Of a DNA stretch of 64,000 nucleotides, positions 1 to 63,596 are shown piece by piece; within the stretch, counting starts at the first letter, position 1, and every line of letters begins with the position of its first letter. The notes beneath the pieces are model-generated. The model was not told where the DNA came from, did no database searches, and saw only the letters and a list, made by a program, of their open reading frames with translations. Made by a program: the position numbers and the translations under genes. Origin of the DNA: a virus (Duplodnaviria; Caudoviricetes); the IMG/VR virus record IMGVR_UViG_3300011442_000001, positions 1-64,000 of that record. The stretch is one strand, 5' to 3'.

Positions 1-938
1 TCCTTGGCAATTTCTAAATTCTGTTTCGTGGCTCTTTTTGAGGAGAGAACATCCAAGAACTGTGGCTCGGAGGGAACCTTGAGAGTTACAGCCAGCTTTC
101 TTATCCTATTAATAATGTGGGCATTTCTGCTGGACTTGAACGCCAGAAAAATCATCTTATAGCGGTAGAAAATCTCCGCCAGACGTTGTACACCATACTT
201 CCCTACATACATGACCAGAAGTGCTTCCGTAACGGAATTTTTCTTCGCCTTGATTTCAATGAAAGTTCTGGCATTTTTGATGAGCATGGTTTGCCCGGTT
301 GTTTTGTAGACAAGATAACGCAGAAATTCTTCAGGATTACTTGGAACCATCTTGAAGGAATCGTACAGGAGGATGGAGAATTCCCGATTTCTCACCTGAG
401 AGATTTCTTCAGGAGTTACCTTGGTTACTGTCAGGATTTCCAGCACGGCTTGCAGGGTCTCATCCTTCAGGGCAATTCCGGTGTTCAAAAGCCCCAGAGT
501 TTTCTCCTTCAATTCCCCCAGAGTATATCCGTGAATAACTTTCAATTCAAGTTTCGGCATTTCTGGAATCTGAAGTTCTTCAAGGGGAATATACACCATT
601 TCTGGATGTTCTTCTCCTGTAAGATATTCAATTCCATATGTAGTGAAATAGTGGATGATTTGTTCTATCACAAGTTGATAGATGGAAGCTGTGGCAATTT
701 TCTCCCACGATTTGTGGAAGGAGGAATTAGCCTGTTCTCCAGAAATGCCAATTCTCTCATAAATATTTGCCAAACTTCCAATTGAATAGTTCCCCAAAAC
801 TTCAGGGGAAAAGATAAAACCCCTCTTAACAGTAGCATTAAGCAGGGTTTTATATGGAACTTCTACTTTTCCTTTATCCTGTACGGGAAGTCCATTGAAA
901 AGGTACAGGGTAGCATCAATCAAAGAAACTGCTGACAT
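1..938 (-). CDS. Conserved phage alpha-helical protein, N-terminal part, running off the window edge; possibly a TROVE/Ro-like-TerD fusion family member
   Basis: Not in the ORF track because it has no stop in the window. ATG at 938 with AGGAGA RBS, open to base 1: MSAVSLIDATLYLFNGLP...NSSFHKSWEKIATASIYQLVIEQIIHYFTTYG... The family assignment is from recall of the FHKSW...HYFTTYG motif and needs HHpred. Confidence 0.75.
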   Translation of the reverse strand, partial: MSAVSLIDATLYLFNGLPVQDKGKVEVPYKTLLNATVKRGFIFSPEVLGNYSIGSLANIYERIGISGEQANSSFHKSWEKIATASIYQLVIEQIIHYFTTYGIEYLTGEEHPEMVYIPLEELQIPEMPKLELKVIHGYTLGELKEKTLGLLNTGIALKDETLQAVLEILTVTKVTPEEISQVRNREFSILLYDSFKMVPSNPEEFLRYLVYKTTGQTMLIKNARTFIEIKAKKNSVTEALLVMYVGKYGVQRLAEIFYRYKMIFLAFKSSRNAHIINRIRKLAVTLKVPSEPQFLDVLSSKRATKQNLEIAK

Positions 939-959
939 TTTTCTCCTATTCTGTTAAAC

Positions 960-1526
960 TTAAAAGAACGGGAAAATATCAATTAACTTTTCCCGAAATT
1001 CCGCTGTGAATCCATCACAGCACTGTACACTAAATTCATACTTACTGGAATAGTAGGAAATTTCTGCATGTACTGACTTGACTTGTTCTGGGAACTTAGT
1101 ATCCCATAAATGATGCACACAATTCAACCATGAAGAATTATCTGGAAAGGACAGGGAATATTGTCTCATGGCTTGCAGTATATATTCTTGGTCTAAGTTT
1201 TTGTACCCCAAAGCTACAGAAATCTGCTCATAACCTTCAATACCCCACTTTAGATTAAAAACTACATAGGAATCTGACTCTCCTTTTCTTTCCAGAAACT
1301 TGTTGGTTTTCTTAATCAAGAAATGGTTAAGAAGAACTTCTTTTGCCGGAGGAATAGTCAGATTCTTCTCAGAAGCTTTTGTGACCTGTTTTCTAGTTAA
1401 AACCAGACGAGAATGCCTGCCAGAAATTACGAAATGATTTGGGTCTAAGGTGAAAAGAATTTCTTTCGCCTGACCGTTTATCAGCACAGATTGTTTCATG
1501 ATATTTTTCCTTATTTTTCTAGACAT
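960..1526 (-). CDS. Hypothetical protein (start may be 1499)
   Basis: 188-aa ORF co-oriented with neighbours. Confidence 0.6.
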   Translation of the reverse strand: MSRKIRKNIMKQSVLINGQAKEILFTLDPNHFVISGRHSRLVLTRKQVTKASEKNLTIPPAKEVLLNHFLIKKTNKFLERKGESDSYVVFNLKWGIEGYEQISVALGYKNLDQEYILQAMRQYSLSFPDNSSWLNCVHHLWDTKFPEQVKSVHAEISYYSSKYEFSVQCCDGFTAEFREKLIDIFPFF

Positions 1527-1579
1527 TGGCGAGTAGTAAAGTTTCGCAAAAGGAATTTAGAGGAACTACTTATGCCAAT
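1525..1579 (-). ncRNA. Structured repeat motif, copy 1 (GGC-ANA-stem-TCCTYTAAA...stem'-C-GCC)
   Basis: Minus strand GGC ATA AGTAGT TCCTCTAAA...T ACTACT C GCC; outer stem extended by ATT/AAT. Confidence 0.65.
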
Positions 1580-1590
1580 TTATTTGCGAC

Positions 1591-1642
1591 GGGCGGGAAG
1601 TAAGTAAATTGTATGAGAATTTTAAAGGAAGTTCCTTTGCCC
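1591..1642 (-). ncRNA. Structured repeat motif, copy 2
   Basis: Minus strand GGGC AAA GGAACT TCCTTTAAA...T ACTTCC C GCCC; one C-C mismatch in the inner stem. Confidence 0.6.
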
Positions 1643-1698
1643 AAATAGCGGGAGATAAATCAAAGAATATTTGTTTGTTAGAGGAATCTCCTATGCCT

Positions 1699-2073
1699 TT
1701 ATTCTCTTTCTTGGAAGACTGTTCTTCCAGTGTACTTTCTCCCAGAATCAAACGACAGGGAGTTATCCACATATCTTTCAAAGATAATTGCAATTGCTTT
1801 ATCTATGCTTTCTTCATAGAAAAGCTCACTATCCATAACTTCGGGATAAATTGCATTCAAAAAAGCCTGTCCAAATCTTTGACCAATATACTTGTGATTT
1901 GGAAACTTTTCTTTTGTGAAAAAATCTAGATAAAAATCCACATAGGAGTGACTGGAAATTCCTTCCAACTCTTCTGAAATAACAAATCCCTCACAACTTC
2001 CTTTACTATTTACACAGCAATAATCTTCATTGAGAGGAATTATCTCATGACAGTGAGAACAAATTTTTAACAT
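1699..2073 (-). CDS. Hypothetical protein with N-terminal Cys cluster
   Basis: 124-aa ORF, CSHC...CC...C. Confidence 0.6.
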   Translation of the reverse strand: MLKICSHCHEIIPLNEDYCCVNSKGSCEGFVISEELEGISSHSYVDFYLDFFTKEKFPNHKYIGQRFGQAFLNAIYPEVMDSELFYEESIDKAIAIIFERYVDNSLSFDSGRKYTGRTVFQERE

Positions 2074-2076
2074 GAT

Positions 2077-2298
2077 TTACTCCAGTACTTCAATGGTGAT
2101 TTTCACAGGAAGAATCTCTGTAAACCAATCTTTCTGAAAAGAACTTAAAACATGATGCTGCCAATATTCTGCTTCACCTCTTGTCAAAAATTTTTCGGCA
2201 CGTTCCAAGGTAAAAACCGATGTTTCTTCTCTTTTGAAAAACATATCACGCTTTACATTGGAAAGAATCCAACGATTTTTGACCAAAATTTGGGCCAT
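2077..2298 (-). CDS. Hypothetical protein
   Basis: The ATG at 2298 has an AAGGAG RBS; the longer 2340 start would overlap structured motif copy 3. Confidence 0.6.
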   Translation of the reverse strand: MAQILVKNRWILSNVKRDMFFKREETSVFTLERAEKFLTRGEAEYWQHHVLSSFQKDWFTEILPVKITIEVLE

Positions 2299-2316
2299 TT
2301 TATTTCTCCTTGATTT

Positions 2317-2373
2317 TACTGGCGGAATGTAGATAGACATGTGAGGTTTTTAAAGGAACATTCTGTGCCGGTA
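2317..2373 (-). ncRNA. Structured repeat motif, copy 3
   Basis: Minus strand GGC ACA GAATGT TCCTTTAAA...T ACATTC C GCC; intergenic. Confidence 0.65.
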
Positions 2374-3140
2374 TTTTACTTGGTTTCTGTCGGATGCAAT
2401 TCTGCATCCCACTGCTTGAGAAGTTTGGAGACATCTTCCGGGGTACATCCTGCCATGATTAACTTCAAAGATGCACCAGCTTCGTTGCAAAATCCAGCCA
2501 TAAATAGCTGGTAAATTTCTAGAACTCTTTTAGCTTCCATTTATTCTCACTATCTTGTGTAAGTTCTAGTGTAGATTTGGTCTACGACACAGCCGGGATG
2601 AACTCTTTCCACATAATGATGCATGGTTTCTCCAAATCGAAGATGCACAAACTCTACTTGAGAATTCCCCTCAGCATTTTCTAGAACAACAACATAGAAT
2701 TCATTGTCATATACTTCTTCCATAACATTCTCCTAGGTATTATTTCCTGTTCTATTGAAGAACATAATTATGGCCCAAATAGGCCAGAAAATTGCTTTTA
2801 GAATTACTAATACAATTACTTCTCCGAGTCTAAACTCTGCAAAAAAAGTAGTGATAAAACCTGCCACGTAAAGCACGATAAAAAAGATTATCATTGATTT
2901 GTCCTAAAAAATCATCTTAAGTAATGATAAGATAAGGAATAGAAACATCCCTACATCAAACAGAGCCACCAAAAGCATCAGAAAAAGTTTGCAAACAGTC
3001 TCTAAATCTTTCATAGTAATTATCCTGAAAAATACTTGACGATTTCTGAGAAAAGCATAAATACCGTCGCTGTACCGAAAATTAGAATTAAAATAGCAGC
3101 TAAATCTTCAAACGATAAGTTTTGCAAACTTTTTTTCATT

Positions 3141-3410
3141 TTATTTCTCCTTAACTATTTCTACGCCATTAGATGGAATTAATCCACCATGAATAGACAG
3201 AATTTTGTAGGGAACTCCACCAACAGCTTCTGAGAGTTCTTCCACAGTTATTTCCACAATGTCAAATCCTCCAACGGAAACTGCCTTGGCAGAATTATTG
3301 ATAGAAGCATACTCAGCCTGCTCATAAGTATTTCCTCCAACAAAACTTTCCCCATCATGAAGTAGCATAGTTTTATTCTCGTTCTTGACACGAAATCTTA
3401 ATAGAAACAT
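3141..3410 (-). CDS. Hypothetical protein
   Basis: 89-aa ORF with RBS, tightly packed with neighbours. Confidence 0.6.
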   Translation of the reverse strand: MFLLRFRVKNENKTMLLHDGESFVGGNTYEQAEYASINNSAKAVSVGGFDIVEITVEELSEAVGGVPYKILSIHGGLIPSNGVEIVKEK

Positions 3411-3411
3411 T

Positions 3412-3687
3412 TTATCCTCTGCTTTCTATGAAAAACATTACAGATTCCAGAGTTGAAATTTTACGAGATGTTATCTCTAACTCGTCAAGACACCAACTAT
3501 CCACGTAATCTACTGTGGGAATATCATGCAAAAAATTGCAATATCCCGTCAATAAAGCTAATGCTTGCAGAATTGTTTCATGTAAATCTGCAAAGTTATC
3601 TGGGCGAATATGCCTATGCTTCATAAAGTCAAAAATTTTAGCAGAATTTGAAGCTCTTTCTTGCCCTTTGGTTATTCTATGTGCCAT
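3412..3687 (-). CDS. Hypothetical protein
   Basis: 91-aa ORF, AAGGAG RBS. Confidence 0.6.
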   Translation of the reverse strand: MAHRITKGQERASNSAKIFDFMKHRHIRPDNFADLHETILQALALLTGYCNFLHDIPTVDYVDSWCLDELEITSRKISTLESVMFFIESRG

Positions 3688-3728
3688 AATATTTCTCCTT
3701 AGCTTTTGGCCTATTAAATTTGTACGTA

Positions 3729-3803
3729 GTCCCTGTCTTGGGATTCGAACCCAAAACCTACAGCTTAGAAGGCTGGTGCTCTGTCCGTTGAGCTAGACAG
3801 GGA
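3729..3803 (-). tRNA. tRNA-Arg(UCU)
   Basis: Acceptor TCCCTGT/ACAGGGA, D arm AGCTCAACGGACAGAGC, anticodon loop CTTCTAA, T loop TTCGAAT; no encoded CCA. Confidence 0.9.
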
Positions 3804-3980
3804 AAATCTCCCCAATTTCTTGAGGAGAACTTTCACAGAAATTACCGTATATCTAATTCCAGACCGGGAATGATGGTTGTTGGCCGCACCCCGCCAGCAA
3901 AATTCCCCCCAAAATCACCAGCAAGGTAAGTATGAACTTTTTCATTTGCAGAAACTCCTTTCTAAATTGTCTGAAATTTC

Positions 3981-63312: not shown

Positions 63313-63362
63313 ATATGCATCCGAGTTTTTTACAGAAACCCGGAAGGGAAAACTGGCAATAG

Positions 63363-63435
63363 AGCCTCCACTCAGGAGTTGAACCGAGTTCTGCCGTTTA
63401 CAGGACGGCGGTTTTACCGCATAAACTACAGAGGC
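63363..63435 (-). tRNA. tRNA-Thr(UGU), atypical
   Basis: GCCTCTG/TGGAGGC; GCCGT-CCTGTAA-ACGGC with C33; one extra base in the T arm. Confidence 0.65.
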
Positions 63436-63440
63436 ATTTG

Positions 63441-63523
63441 TTTGGCGGAAAGTATTTGGGAGGCTGTGACGGCGGGGTTCTCACCCGCTCGTCACAAAAT
63501 TTAAAGGAACTTTCTGTGCCAAA
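63441..63523 (-). ncRNA. Structured repeat motif, copy 4, within the tRNA cluster
   Basis: TTTGGC ACA GAAAGT TCCTTTAAA-[12-bp hairpin]-T ACTTTC C GCCAAA. Confidence 0.7.
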
Positions 63524-63524
63524 G

Positions 63525-63596
63525 TATGTCCCAAAGGTATCGAGCCTTCCTACTCCGCTTTTCAGGCAGAAGCTAATCCATCTCAGCTAGGGACAT
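63525..63596 (-). tRNA. tRNA-Phe(GAA)
   Basis: ATGTCCC/GGGACAT; TCTGC-CTGAAAA-GCGGA; T loop CTCGATA (C instead of T54). Confidence 0.75.

What the first reader, a model, noticed from the sequence alone, without database searches (positions are those of the whole stretch)
1525..2373. Unannotated family of small structured RNA-like elements with compensatory base changes (three copies here, a fourth in the tRNA cluster)
Seen: four intergenic elements (1525-1579, 1591-1642, 2317-2373, 63441-63523) share the minus-strand consensus GGC-A(C/T/A)A-[6-nt stem]-TCCTYTAAA-[variable]-T-[stem']-C-GCC. The inner stem differs in each copy yet stays paired (AGTAGT/ACTACT, GAATGT/ACATTC, GAAAGT/ACTTTC, and GGAACT/ACTTCC with one mismatch). 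The 3x1 internal loop layout and the unpaired TCCTYTAAA are retained in all four. This pattern indicates selection on RNA structure plus a protein- or RNA-recognition sequence, not simple duplication. Inference: a phage-encoded family of small RNAs whose 5'/3' ends pair into a bulged stem, architecturally reminiscent of Y RNAs. Their partner may be the alpha-helical protein encoded just downstream (1-938), forming an RNP for RNA repair or counter-defence.
Basis: partly seen in the sequence, partly recalled or inferred. Interest (0 to 1): 0.9.

Follow-up and report, generated by a model that had tools for sequence, protein, structure and literature searches.

The report
Handle RNAs partnered with TerD protein
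The repeats are real copies of a widespread, uncatalogued family of small folded RNAs that almost always sit beside one uncharacterised 627-residue protein gene in phages and bacteria, and together they look like an undescribed counterpart of the Ro60/Y-RNA particle.

Summary
Observation confirmed and extended. The 93-kb phage genome holds eight copies, all on the coding (minus) strand. Each folds as GGC / A-N-A / 6-bp stem / UUCCUYU... variable insert ...U / stem' / C / GCC.

Covariation is very strong: 136 distinct copies from other genomes are 99.3% paired, with 253 double compensatory changes. No Rfam family matches the handle.

ORF 1-938 is the N-terminal half of a 627-aa protein (helical domain plus TerD-fold domain, no Pfam or PHROG family). 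In 160 loci fetched by that protein alone, 151 carry the RNA. All 387 model hits lie on the gene's strand, mostly within 600 nt upstream.

In relatives the variable insert holds GC hairpins, T-arms or whole tRNA mimics, some with weak YrlA hits. In Chryseobacterium the order is rtcB-RNAs-protein, echoing rsr-yrlBA-rtcBA.

No TROVE/Ro60 kinship was detectable, so the system is Y-RNA-like by architecture, not by shown homology. Transcripts, RNA ends, binding and function remain untested.

Other agents of this scan reported the same system on other DNA. I found no paper describing it.

The parts
1528..1576 (-). Handle RNA copy 1 (GGC-AUA-AGUAGU-UCCUCUAAA...U-ACUACU-C-GCC). It lies 28 nt upstream of the ATG at 1499 of a 179-aa ORF.
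   Evidence: CM R1 52.4 bits, E 1.5e-14. The minimum-free-energy fold gives the consensus structure.
1592..1641 (-). Handle RNA copy 2 (inner stem GGAACU/ACUUCC with one C-C mismatch).
   Evidence: CM R1 56.6 bits, E 5.8e-16; sequence.
1647..1697 (-). It starts 2 nt after the stop codon of ORF 1699-2073.
   Evidence: CM R1 47.5 bits, E 6.7e-13; found.
2321..2369 (-). Handle RNA copy 4, 25 nt upstream of the ATG at 2295.
   Evidence: CM R1 52.7 bits, E 1.1e-14.
63444..63520 (-). Handle RNA copy 5. Its variable insert holds a GC-rich hairpin (about 63461-63496). It sits 3 nt after tRNA-Phe and 8 nt before tRNA-Thr.
   Evidence: CM R1 44.7 bits, E 5.7e-12; fold -29.1 kcal/mol with handle and inner hairpin; tRNA coordinates.
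3..938 (-). N-terminal 312 codons of the 627-aa partner protein 'c0' (P0001). The rest lies across the 123-bp terminal repeat at genome 91879-92824. It has a helical N domain and a TerD-fold C domain.
   Evidence: Reconstruction across the terminal repeat. At least 238 homologues of about 620-650 aa with no Pfam domain. AlphaFold2 model with pLDDT 86. TerD match Z 12.2, rmsd 3.0 A over 146 residues. Synteny with the RNA.
63524..63596 (-). tRNA-Phe(GAA), immediately 5' of copy 5 on the transcript. Listed as flanking context for release of the RNA by tRNA processing.
   Evidence: ARAGORN; Rfam tRNA 39.5 bits.
63362..63435 (-). tRNA-Thr(UGU), immediately 3' of copy 5 on the transcript (flanking context).
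   Evidence: ARAGORN; Rfam tRNA 38 bits.

Best explanation
The elements are genes, or co-transcribed segments, for small structured RNAs of one modular family. Each has a constant 'handle' and a variable apical insert.

The handle has these parts:
- a 3-bp closing helix, GGC/GCC
- a conserved 3x1 internal loop, A-N-A opposite C
- a 6-bp helix that covaries freely
- then unpaired UUCCUYU on the 5' side and U on the 3' side

I infer that the handle is the docking site for the 627-aa helical+TerD protein ('c0') whose gene starts at 938, giving a ribonucleoprotein built on the plan of Ro60 with its Y RNAs.

The insert is nearly empty in the window's copies, apart from a GC hairpin in the tRNA-cluster copy. 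In relatives it displays T-arms or whole tRNA mimics. These would bring tRNA-recognising factors or damaged RNAs to the protein.

Copies inside tRNA arrays would be released by the RNase P and 3'-end cuts that mature the neighbouring tRNAs. Copies between ORFs would be released at their AU-rich flanks.

The likely role is tRNA/RNA damage control or counter-defence during infection.

Shown here: the fold, the strand, the family and the gene linkage. Inferred: transcription as discrete RNAs, binding to c0, and the role.
For: 1. Fold under selection. Searches show 98-99% pairing, 253 double compensatory cells and 21 G.U cells against 9 other mismatches. All eight genomic copies lie on the coding strand.
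2. Tight linkage to c0, tested from both sides. Starting from the RNA, 43 of 60 loci have c0 directly downstream on the same strand. Every element-bearing viral record that is at least 84% complete has c0. Starting from the protein, 76 of 80 viral loci (210 model hits) and 75 of 80 cellular-genome loci (177 hits) carry the RNA. All 387 hits are on the c0 strand, mostly less than 600 nt upstream. An independent regex count gives 216 against 11 and 141 against 11 for same against opposite strand. No other neighbouring gene is conserved.
3. The elements are not only a leader of c0. Three of the eight copies lie in the tRNA cluster more than 60 kb from c0. In some contigs the copies lie downstream of c0.
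4. Y-RNA-like modularity. Inserts in relatives hold T-arms, D plus anticodon arms, or complete tRNA mimics with the acceptor stem sealed by a loop such as UUCG. Sub-threshold YrlA hits occur. The opposite circular permutation also exists, with the handle replacing the anticodon loop of a tRNA-like gene (Rfam tRNA 50.3 bits with a 46-nt insert).
5. RNA-repair and tRNA context. The order rtcB-RNAs-c0 holds in 43 Chryseobacterium-group loci. RtcB is also adjacent in viral loci L211 and L205. In 24 of 80 viral c0 loci, tRNAs lie within 3 kb, and all 147 are on the c0 strand. In Synechococcus phage S-CRM01 c0 sits inside the tRNA array. A 12/12 sigma-70 promoter drives tRNA-Leu, two handles and tRNA-Tyr in this genome.
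6. The c0 model is confident (pLDDT 86). Its N domain carries invariant Arg and Lys residues.
Against: - Transcription, RNA ends and abundance are therefore unknown.
- No binding test was possible.
- Most copies sit just upstream of c0, which also fits a cis-acting leader.
- c0 has no detectable TROVE domain. The Pfam six-frame search found nothing. The structure searches of the N domain gave a best Z of 6.1 to unrelated helical proteins. hhalign against a genuine Ro60 gave probability 0.2%.
- The handle lacks the YrlA motif GNCGAAN0-1G (PMC4201824).
- RNA ligases are not general companions. RtcB and Rnl2 are absent from five other c0-bearing phage genomes. The RtcB synteny comes mainly from one bacterial lineage.
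- The window's own copies carry no tRNA-like module.
Confidence: 0.6

Rival explanations
1. The elements are a cis-acting leader or operator. They are structured parts of the mRNA that control translation or stability of the downstream gene, for example by autoregulatory binding of c0 to its own 5' UTR. They are not free RNAs.
For: Most copies lie within 600 nt upstream of c0 on the same strand. In the window, copies 1 and 4 end 25-28 nt before start codons with Shine-Dalgarno sequences. No promoter or terminator consensus flanks them, so they are parts of longer transcripts.
Against: Three of eight copies lie in the tRNA cluster, far from any c0 gene and flanked directly by tRNAs. Some contigs have copies only downstream of c0 (L216, L255, L267). 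Arrays of 2-6 diverged copies with tRNA-mimic inserts are not expected of an operator. In this genome a 179-aa ORF separates the array from c0. The two roles are not exclusive.
Confidence: 0.15
2. The elements are processing, punctuation or circularisation signals. The paired 5' and 3' flanks mark RNA segments for endonucleolytic release, and perhaps for ligation by RtcB. This would mature permuted or interrupted tRNA-like genes, with c0 as the processing factor.
For: The handle encloses permuted tRNA-like sequences, some with an encoded CCA and perfect Asn or Thr anticodon loops (L037, L047, L181, L273). In L258 it encloses a normal-order tRNA-like gene with CCA. RtcB is a tRNA-splicing ligase and is adjacent in Chryseobacterium. 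The elements occupy tRNA-like slots in tRNA arrays.
Against: About 70% of copies have inserts of only 20-35 nt with nothing to mature. Several tRNA-like inserts have acceptor stems sealed by stable loops without CCA, for example UUCG in L165. These are mimics rather than precursors. The capped-handle forms lack any anticodon loop. There is no bulge-helix-bulge motif. Most c0 phages carry no RNA ligase.
Confidence: 0.12
3. The element is a small self-cleaving ribozyme, or another autonomous catalytic RNA, that cuts polycistronic and tRNA-array transcripts.
For: Size of about 50 nt, tandem copies, conserved unpaired nucleotides at helix junctions, an optional variable insert, and positions next to tRNAs. 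All these are habits of phage ribozymes (my own knowledge of hammerhead, twister and HDV-like theta ribozymes).
Against: No Rfam ribozyme family matches, even at E<=10. There are only two short helices and no conserved pseudoknot partner for UCCU. Near-obligate linkage to one protein gene argues for a protein partner.
Confidence: 0.04
4. The element acts at DNA level, as a REP/MITE-like palindrome, a recombination site or an operator.
For: It is an imperfect palindrome repeated in intergenic DNA.
Against: Strict strand polarity: 387 of 387 model hits lie on the c0 strand. G.U pairs outnumber all other mismatches combined by 21 to 9, and they would be A-C mismatches on the other strand. The stem sequences differ in every copy while pairing is kept, and the inserts are tRNA-shaped.
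Confidence: 0.02

Closest known systems
Ro60 (Rsr) with Y RNAs YrlA/YrlB of bacteria and phages, including the Salmonella rsr-yrlBA-rtcBA operon (Chen et al. 2014, PMC4201824; Rfam RF02553)
   Same: The small RNAs have 5' and 3' ends that pair into a bulged stem with a conserved 5'-strand motif. A variable module is often a tRNA mimic whose acceptor stem is sealed. Several different RNAs occur per locus. They are encoded on the same strand next to the gene of a large protein with a helical domain plus a metal-binding domain. RtcB is adjacent in some genomes.
   Different: The handle differs: a 3x1 loop and UUCCUYU, against GNCGAAN0-1G with 5x8 and 3x4 loops in the Rfam consensus. The YrlA model scores only 36 bits on tRNA-bearing relatives and nothing on the window copies. 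The protein has no detectable TROVE domain and carries a TerD fold where Ro60 has vWA. Most family members have no tRNA module. Both circular permutations occur.
Phage T4 'species 1' and 'species 2' stable RNAs (rnaC, rnaD) in the T4 tRNA cluster (from my own knowledge, not checked here)
   Same: Small stable non-tRNA RNAs encoded among phage tRNA genes. They are released by tRNA-processing enzymes and their function is unknown.
   Different: No sequence or structure comparison was made here. No partner protein is known for the T4 RNAs.
Circularly permuted tRNA genes of Cyanidioschyzon merolae and some archaea (from my own knowledge; reviews found)
   Same: In relatives (L037, L047, L181, L273) the tRNA 3' half precedes the 5' half, and the outer flanks pair.
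   Different: There is no bulge-helix-bulge motif. The break lies in the anticodon stem. Many copies have sealed acceptor stems without CCA, so they look like mimics rather than precursors. Most family members carry no tRNA parts at all.
TerD-family proteins (tellurite-resistance TerD; PDB 2qz7, 2kxt, 3ibz)
   Same: The C-terminal 170 residues of c0 have the TerD beta-sandwich (Z 12.2, rmsd 3.0 A over 146 residues; Foldseek probability 1.0). They keep DxD and GDxTD-type motifs.
   Different: Pfam finds no TerD family in c0 at E<=1. The domain is fused to a 380-residue helical domain of no known family and is linked to an RNA, which is not described for Ter systems.

Membership tests
YrlA / bacterial Y RNA (Rfam RF02553) | Scores at or above the Rfam gathering threshold (69 bits) with the YrlA covariance model | tested here: not met
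   The window copies give no YrlA hit even at E<=10. Relatives with tRNA-like inserts score 36.2 and 36.6 bits.
YrlA / bacterial Y RNA (Rfam RF02553) | Conserved 5' motif GNCGAAN0-1G thought to contact Ro60 (Chen 2014, PMC4201824) | tested here: not met
   The family consensus is GGC-A-H-A-R (79 non-redundant copies). It differs at the G-A core of the motif.
YrlA / bacterial Y RNA (Rfam RF02553) | 5' and 3' ends pair into a stem, with a variable or effector module at the apex | tested here: met
   Covarying basal helices enclose a variable insert. The true RNA ends were not determined.
YrlA / bacterial Y RNA (Rfam RF02553) | tRNA-like module (T arm, D arm, sealed acceptor stem) | tested here: not met
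   None of the eight copies of this genome has one. Copy 63444-63520 has only a GC hairpin whose 7-nt loop UGAGAAC is not a T-loop. The feature is met in relatives (L037, L047, L165, L181, L196, L260, L273).
YrlA / bacterial Y RNA (Rfam RF02553) | Encoded next to a Ro60/TROVE gene | tested here: not met
   No TROVE match in the whole phage genome at E<=1. The neighbour is c0. In one planctomycete a canonical Ro60 lies about 2.5 kb from c0.
YrlA / bacterial Y RNA (Rfam RF02553) | Bound by Ro60 in vivo | not testable with these tools
   Needs immunoprecipitation.
Ro60 / TROVE proteins (for the partner c0) | TROVE domain detectable by profile | tested here: not met
   Pfam gives no family for P0001 or four homologues at E<=1. 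The six-frame TROVE search of the genome is empty. hhalign of the c0 profile against a genuine Ro60 gives probability 0.2%.
Ro60 / TROVE proteins (for the partner c0) | HEAT-like ring fold similar to solved Ro60 structures | tested here: inconclusive
   For the N-domain model (residues 1-312, pLDDT 83) the best VIA Z is 6.1, to unrelated helical domains. No Ro60 chain is among the listed rows, and Foldseek finds nothing at E<=1e-3. The last 70 residues of the helical domain were not in that model.
Ro60 / TROVE proteins (for the partner c0) | C-terminal vWA domain | tested here: not met
   The C-terminal domain has a TerD fold instead.
TerD domain (C-terminal part of c0) | TerD beta-sandwich fold | tested here: met
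   2qz7_B Z 12.2, rmsd 3.0 A, 146 aligned; 2kxt Z 10.6. Foldseek probability 1.0 for 2qng, 3ibz and 2kxt.
Intrinsic terminator / sigma-70 promoter | GC hairpin followed by a U run, or -35/-10 hexamers at fixed spacing | tested here: not met
   No promoter-like or terminator-like site coincides with the elements in 900-3900. The insert length varies from 19 to more than 110 nt, so no fixed spacing exists.
Permuted or intron-bearing true tRNA genes | A complete cloverleaf with a 7-nt anticodon loop can be restored, plus a recognisable splice motif (bulge-helix-bulge) | tested here: not met
   The window copies have no tRNA parts. In relatives several acceptor stems are sealed without CCA, and the capped forms have a 46-nt handle in place of the anticodon loop. 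No bulge-helix-bulge motif is present.

The most novel reading that the evidence does not exclude
The handle RNAs and c0 form a new class of ribonucleoprotein, unrelated by descent to Ro60/Y RNA. A constant RNA handle docks on a novel helical RNA-binding domain. Swappable inserts (tRNA mimics, T-arms, hairpins) act as baits or decoys for tRNA-directed enzymes. The Ca2+-binding TerD domain acts as a sensor or effector. Phages would use the particle to protect or repair their large tRNA sets against host anticodon nucleases. Bacteria would couple it to RtcB.
Probability: 0.35. Interest if true: 0.9.

Novelty: new variant of a known kind. Interest (0 to 1): 0.8.

Why it matters
Y RNAs with Ro60 are the only well-known case of a protein that carries modular tRNA-mimicking RNAs, and their bacterial function is still unclear. 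This finding gives a second, much more widespread RNA-protein pair built on the same plan, with no detectable kinship of either part.

Here it was seen in about 150 viral contigs and about 190 cellular contigs. It is present in culturable systems: Synechococcus phages S-CRM01 and S-CBWM1, and dozens of Chryseobacterium species where it follows rtcB. Pull-down, knock-out and structure work can therefore test it directly.

It also assigns a likely role to a large family of 'hypothetical' 620-650-aa phage proteins. It explains unannotated gaps, and at least one doubtful ORF, in phage tRNA arrays. It adds an RNA family with strong covariation that Rfam lacks.

Tried and rejected
It was useful only after a structural filter.
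- Real permuted tRNA genes: considered after L037 and L047. ARAGORN on duplicated units found the cloverleaf arms, but its anticodon and intron calls were arbitrary. I set the idea aside as the main reading because many inserts are empty and several acceptor stems are sealed.
- Guide-RNA idea: the eight variable inserts show only chance-level complementarity (11-12-mers, E>=0.09) elsewhere in the phage genome. The host genome is unknown.
- Promoter or terminator: none at the elements.
- Alternative pairing of UCCU with the 5' stem strand: not supported, because C14 and C15 are invariant while positions 7 and 8 vary and covary with the 3' strand.
- TROVE/Ro60 kinship of c0: the Pfam, PDB sequence, Foldseek, VIA-wide, ESM Atlas and hhalign searches were all negative or non-specific.
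- RNA ligase as an obligatory third partner: RtcB is absent from this genome, and RtcB and Rnl2 are absent from five other c0 phage genomes. This genome's Rnl2-like ligase is 11 kb away from c0.
I treat it as a plain GC hairpin like those in other copies.
- Literature: five full-text searches found no description of this RNA or protein family.
Full report
**What is there**

The window is the first 64 kb of a 92,947-bp phage contig with 40% GC and a 123-bp direct terminal repeat. Nearly all genes are on the minus strand, and the contig carries 23 tRNA genes.

The 9-mer alone is not significant.

Looser scans and a covariance model built from 14 copies (A1, R1) find exactly eight copies in the genome, all on the minus strand. 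Their E values run from 6e-12 to 3e-16, and the next best hit has E 0.53. The copies are:
- window 2321-2369
- window 63444-63520, between tRNA-Phe and tRNA-Thr
- outside the window, 68278-68328 and 68346-68399, between tRNA-Leu(CAA) and tRNA-Tyr
- outside the window, 91068-91118

**Anatomy**

From the 5' end the RNA reads:
- GGC
- A-N-A, unpaired
- a 6-nt stem strand ending in GU
- unpaired UUCCUYU
- a variable insert
- U
- the complementary 6-nt strand beginning with AC
- an unpaired C
- GCC

The flanks are AU-rich and not conserved (79 non-redundant copies). Seven of the eight genomic copies give this fold as their minimum-free-energy structure.

**Is the fold selected?**

On the 14-copy alignment, 98.4% of cells pair, five of the six inner pairs change on both sides, and no shuffle reaches the observed score.

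On 136 distinct copies collected next to the protein gene in other viral contigs, 99.3% of cells pair. There are 253 double-change cells, including GC-to-AU swaps in the closing helix. There are 21 G.U cells against 9 mismatches of all other kinds.

That alignment is fitted to the model. However, copies found by sequence motif alone pair just as well. The excess of G.U pairs and the strict strand polarity point to RNA rather than duplex DNA.

**Known families**

Rfam 15 at gathering thresholds finds only the tRNAs. Permissive scans (E<=10) over both window regions find nothing credible. No sigma-70 promoter or intrinsic terminator coincides with the elements.

The copies in the tRNA array lie in a unit headed by a perfect TTGACA-17-TATAAT promoter.

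**Relatives and inserts**

Two motif scans of IMG/VR, filtered for the fold, recovered the element in dozens of viral contigs, usually as 2-6 tandem diverged copies.

About 70% of copies have a 20-35-nt insert, like those of this window. Others carry:
- GC hairpins
- a lone T-arm
- a D arm plus an anticodon arm
- a complete tRNA-like body in permuted order (3' half, loop, 5' half), so that the RNA ends lie in the handle and the acceptor stem is closed, sometimes by a UUCG loop

These tRNA-bearing units give sub-threshold hits to Rfam YrlA (36 bits; gathering score 69). The match lies in the tRNA-like module and the GGC...GCC ends.

The opposite permutation also exists. In 58 loci a tRNA-like gene has the handle, capped by a 3-8-nt loop, in place of its anticodon loop. 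Rfam's tRNA model scores one such gene at 50.3 bits with a 46-nt insert.

The handle is therefore a module attached where the anticodon arm of a tRNA-shaped RNA would be, as in YrlA.

**The partner**

ORF 3-938 continues across the terminal repeat to give a 627-aa protein, P0001, which I call 'c0'. It has at least 238 homologues of 620-650 aa, with no Pfam, PHROG or source name.

The AlphaFold2 model (pLDDT 86, pTM 0.82) shows a helical N domain (residues 1-381) and a C-terminal beta-sandwich. The C domain has a TerD fold: 2qz7_B Z 12.2, rmsd 3.0 A over 146 residues, and Foldseek probability 1.0.

The N domain, modelled alone, matches nothing convincingly. The best Z is 6.1, and no Ro60 chain is listed. 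The ESM Atlas returns only viral hypothetical proteins. hhalign against a genuine Ro60 gives probability 0.2%.

**Linkage**

Starting from the RNA:
- 43 of 60 loci have c0 directly downstream on the same strand.
- c0 is the only conserved neighbour.
- All element-bearing viral records that are at least 84% complete contain c0.

Starting from the protein:
- Of 80 viral loci fetched by c0 alone, 76 have the RNA (210 model hits). Three of the four exceptions lack upstream sequence.
- Of 80 loci from cellular genomes, 75 have it (177 hits).
- All 387 hits lie on the c0 strand, mostly within 600 nt upstream and sometimes just downstream.
- A model-independent regex count gives 216 against 11 and 141 against 11 for same against opposite strand.

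**Context**

- c0 occurs in the cultured Synechococcus phages S-CRM01 and S-CBWM1 and in gut phage Phass-1. In S-CRM01 it is g174, inside the tRNA array, and the upstream handle is overlain by a doubtful ORF, g173c.
- In 24 of 80 viral c0 loci, tRNAs lie within 3 kb, and all 147 are on the c0 strand.
- In about 45 Chryseobacterium-group genomes the order is rtcB, a tRNA-like RNA with a capped handle, three plain handles, then c0.
- RtcB is also adjacent in two viral contigs.
- This mirrors rsr-yrlBA-rtcBA (PMC4201824; PMC7790460, abstract only).
- The ligase link is not general. This phage has no RtcB, only an Rnl2-like ligase 11 kb from c0. Five other c0 phage genomes have neither.
- Four of five c0-bearing bacterial genomes lack TROVE. 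In one planctomycete a canonical Ro60 lies about 2.5 kb from c0.

**Interpretation**

The best-supported reading is a modular small-RNA family whose constant handle docks on c0. The architecture is Y-RNA-like, but homology to Y RNA or Ro60 is not demonstrable.

Shown here: the fold, the strand, the family, the gene linkage, tRNA-mimic inserts in relatives, and the partial RtcB and tRNA context.

Inferred: discrete transcripts, binding, and a role in tRNA/RNA damage control or counter-defence.

The main rival is a cis-acting leader of c0. It cannot explain the tRNA-array copies, the downstream copies or the tRNA-shaped inserts, but it may coexist with the trans-acting role. A processing or circularisation signal for permuted tRNA-like genes remains possible for a minority of copies.

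**Novelty**

Five full-text searches found no description of this RNA or protein family. After I had reached this reading, the scan's own notes showed that other agents reported the same RNA-protein pair on other genomes. Those notes are not independent evidence. Two of them call c0 'Ro60-like' or ring-shaped, which my tests do not support.

Noticed in passing
genome 68514-68542 (outside the window; L122:4514-4542, minus strand): A perfect 12/12 sigma-70 consensus promoter (TTGACA-17-TATAAT) lies directly upstream of tRNA-Leu(CAA). This suggests a host with canonical -35/-10 promoters and strong transcription of this part of the tRNA array.
   Followed up: partly
genome 86772-90711 (L121:10773-14712, minus strand): A cluster of GATase-like, Amidoligase_2 and GGACT (gamma-glutamyl cyclotransferase-like) genes lies just downstream of the c0 region. 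This gene set is known from phage modification or peptide-tagging systems.
   Followed up: no
genome 80449-81099 (L121:4450-5100, minus strand): A short (216 aa) Rnl2-type RNA ligase (PF09414 E 1e-10; phrog_548 E 6e-29). It is the only RNA ligase in the phage, about 11 kb from c0.
   Followed up: partly
L341:3824-4815 (Chryseobacterium sp. chromosome, downstream of c0): A 107-nt tandem repeat with 9.4 copies at 93% identity lies immediately after the c0 gene. Its nature is unknown.
   Followed up: no
L341:1510-1599: A long, near-perfect hairpin lies between rtcB and the tRNA-like RNA. It may be a terminator, a processing stem or another structured RNA.
   Followed up: no
L274:2291-2437 (Synechococcus phage S-CRM01 g173c): The annotated 48-aa minus-strand ORF g173c overlaps the handle RNA upstream of g174 (the c0 homologue) and is probably not a gene.
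   Followed up: partly
L356:787-2433 (Bythopirellula sp., about 2.5 kb from its c0 gene): A canonical Ro60 (TROVE plus vWA_Ro60) is encoded close to c0 on the opposite strand. This is the only case seen here where both proteins occur together.
   Followed up: partly
L037:4309-4734 and L047:3494-3917: Phage-encoded tmRNA genes (Rfam 90 and 81 bits) lie inside large tRNA arrays next to the handle-RNA/c0 module.
   Followed up: no
L258:2633-2748: Here the handle encloses a normal-order tRNA-like gene with an encoded CCA and an odd anticodon loop; ARAGORN calls it tRNA-???. The leader and trailer of a tRNA-like RNA therefore form the handle.
   Followed up: partly
window 960-1499 (minus strand): A 179-aa ORF with no Pfam or PHROG match is inserted between the handle triplet and c0. 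In most other contigs the handles abut c0 directly.
   Followed up: partly
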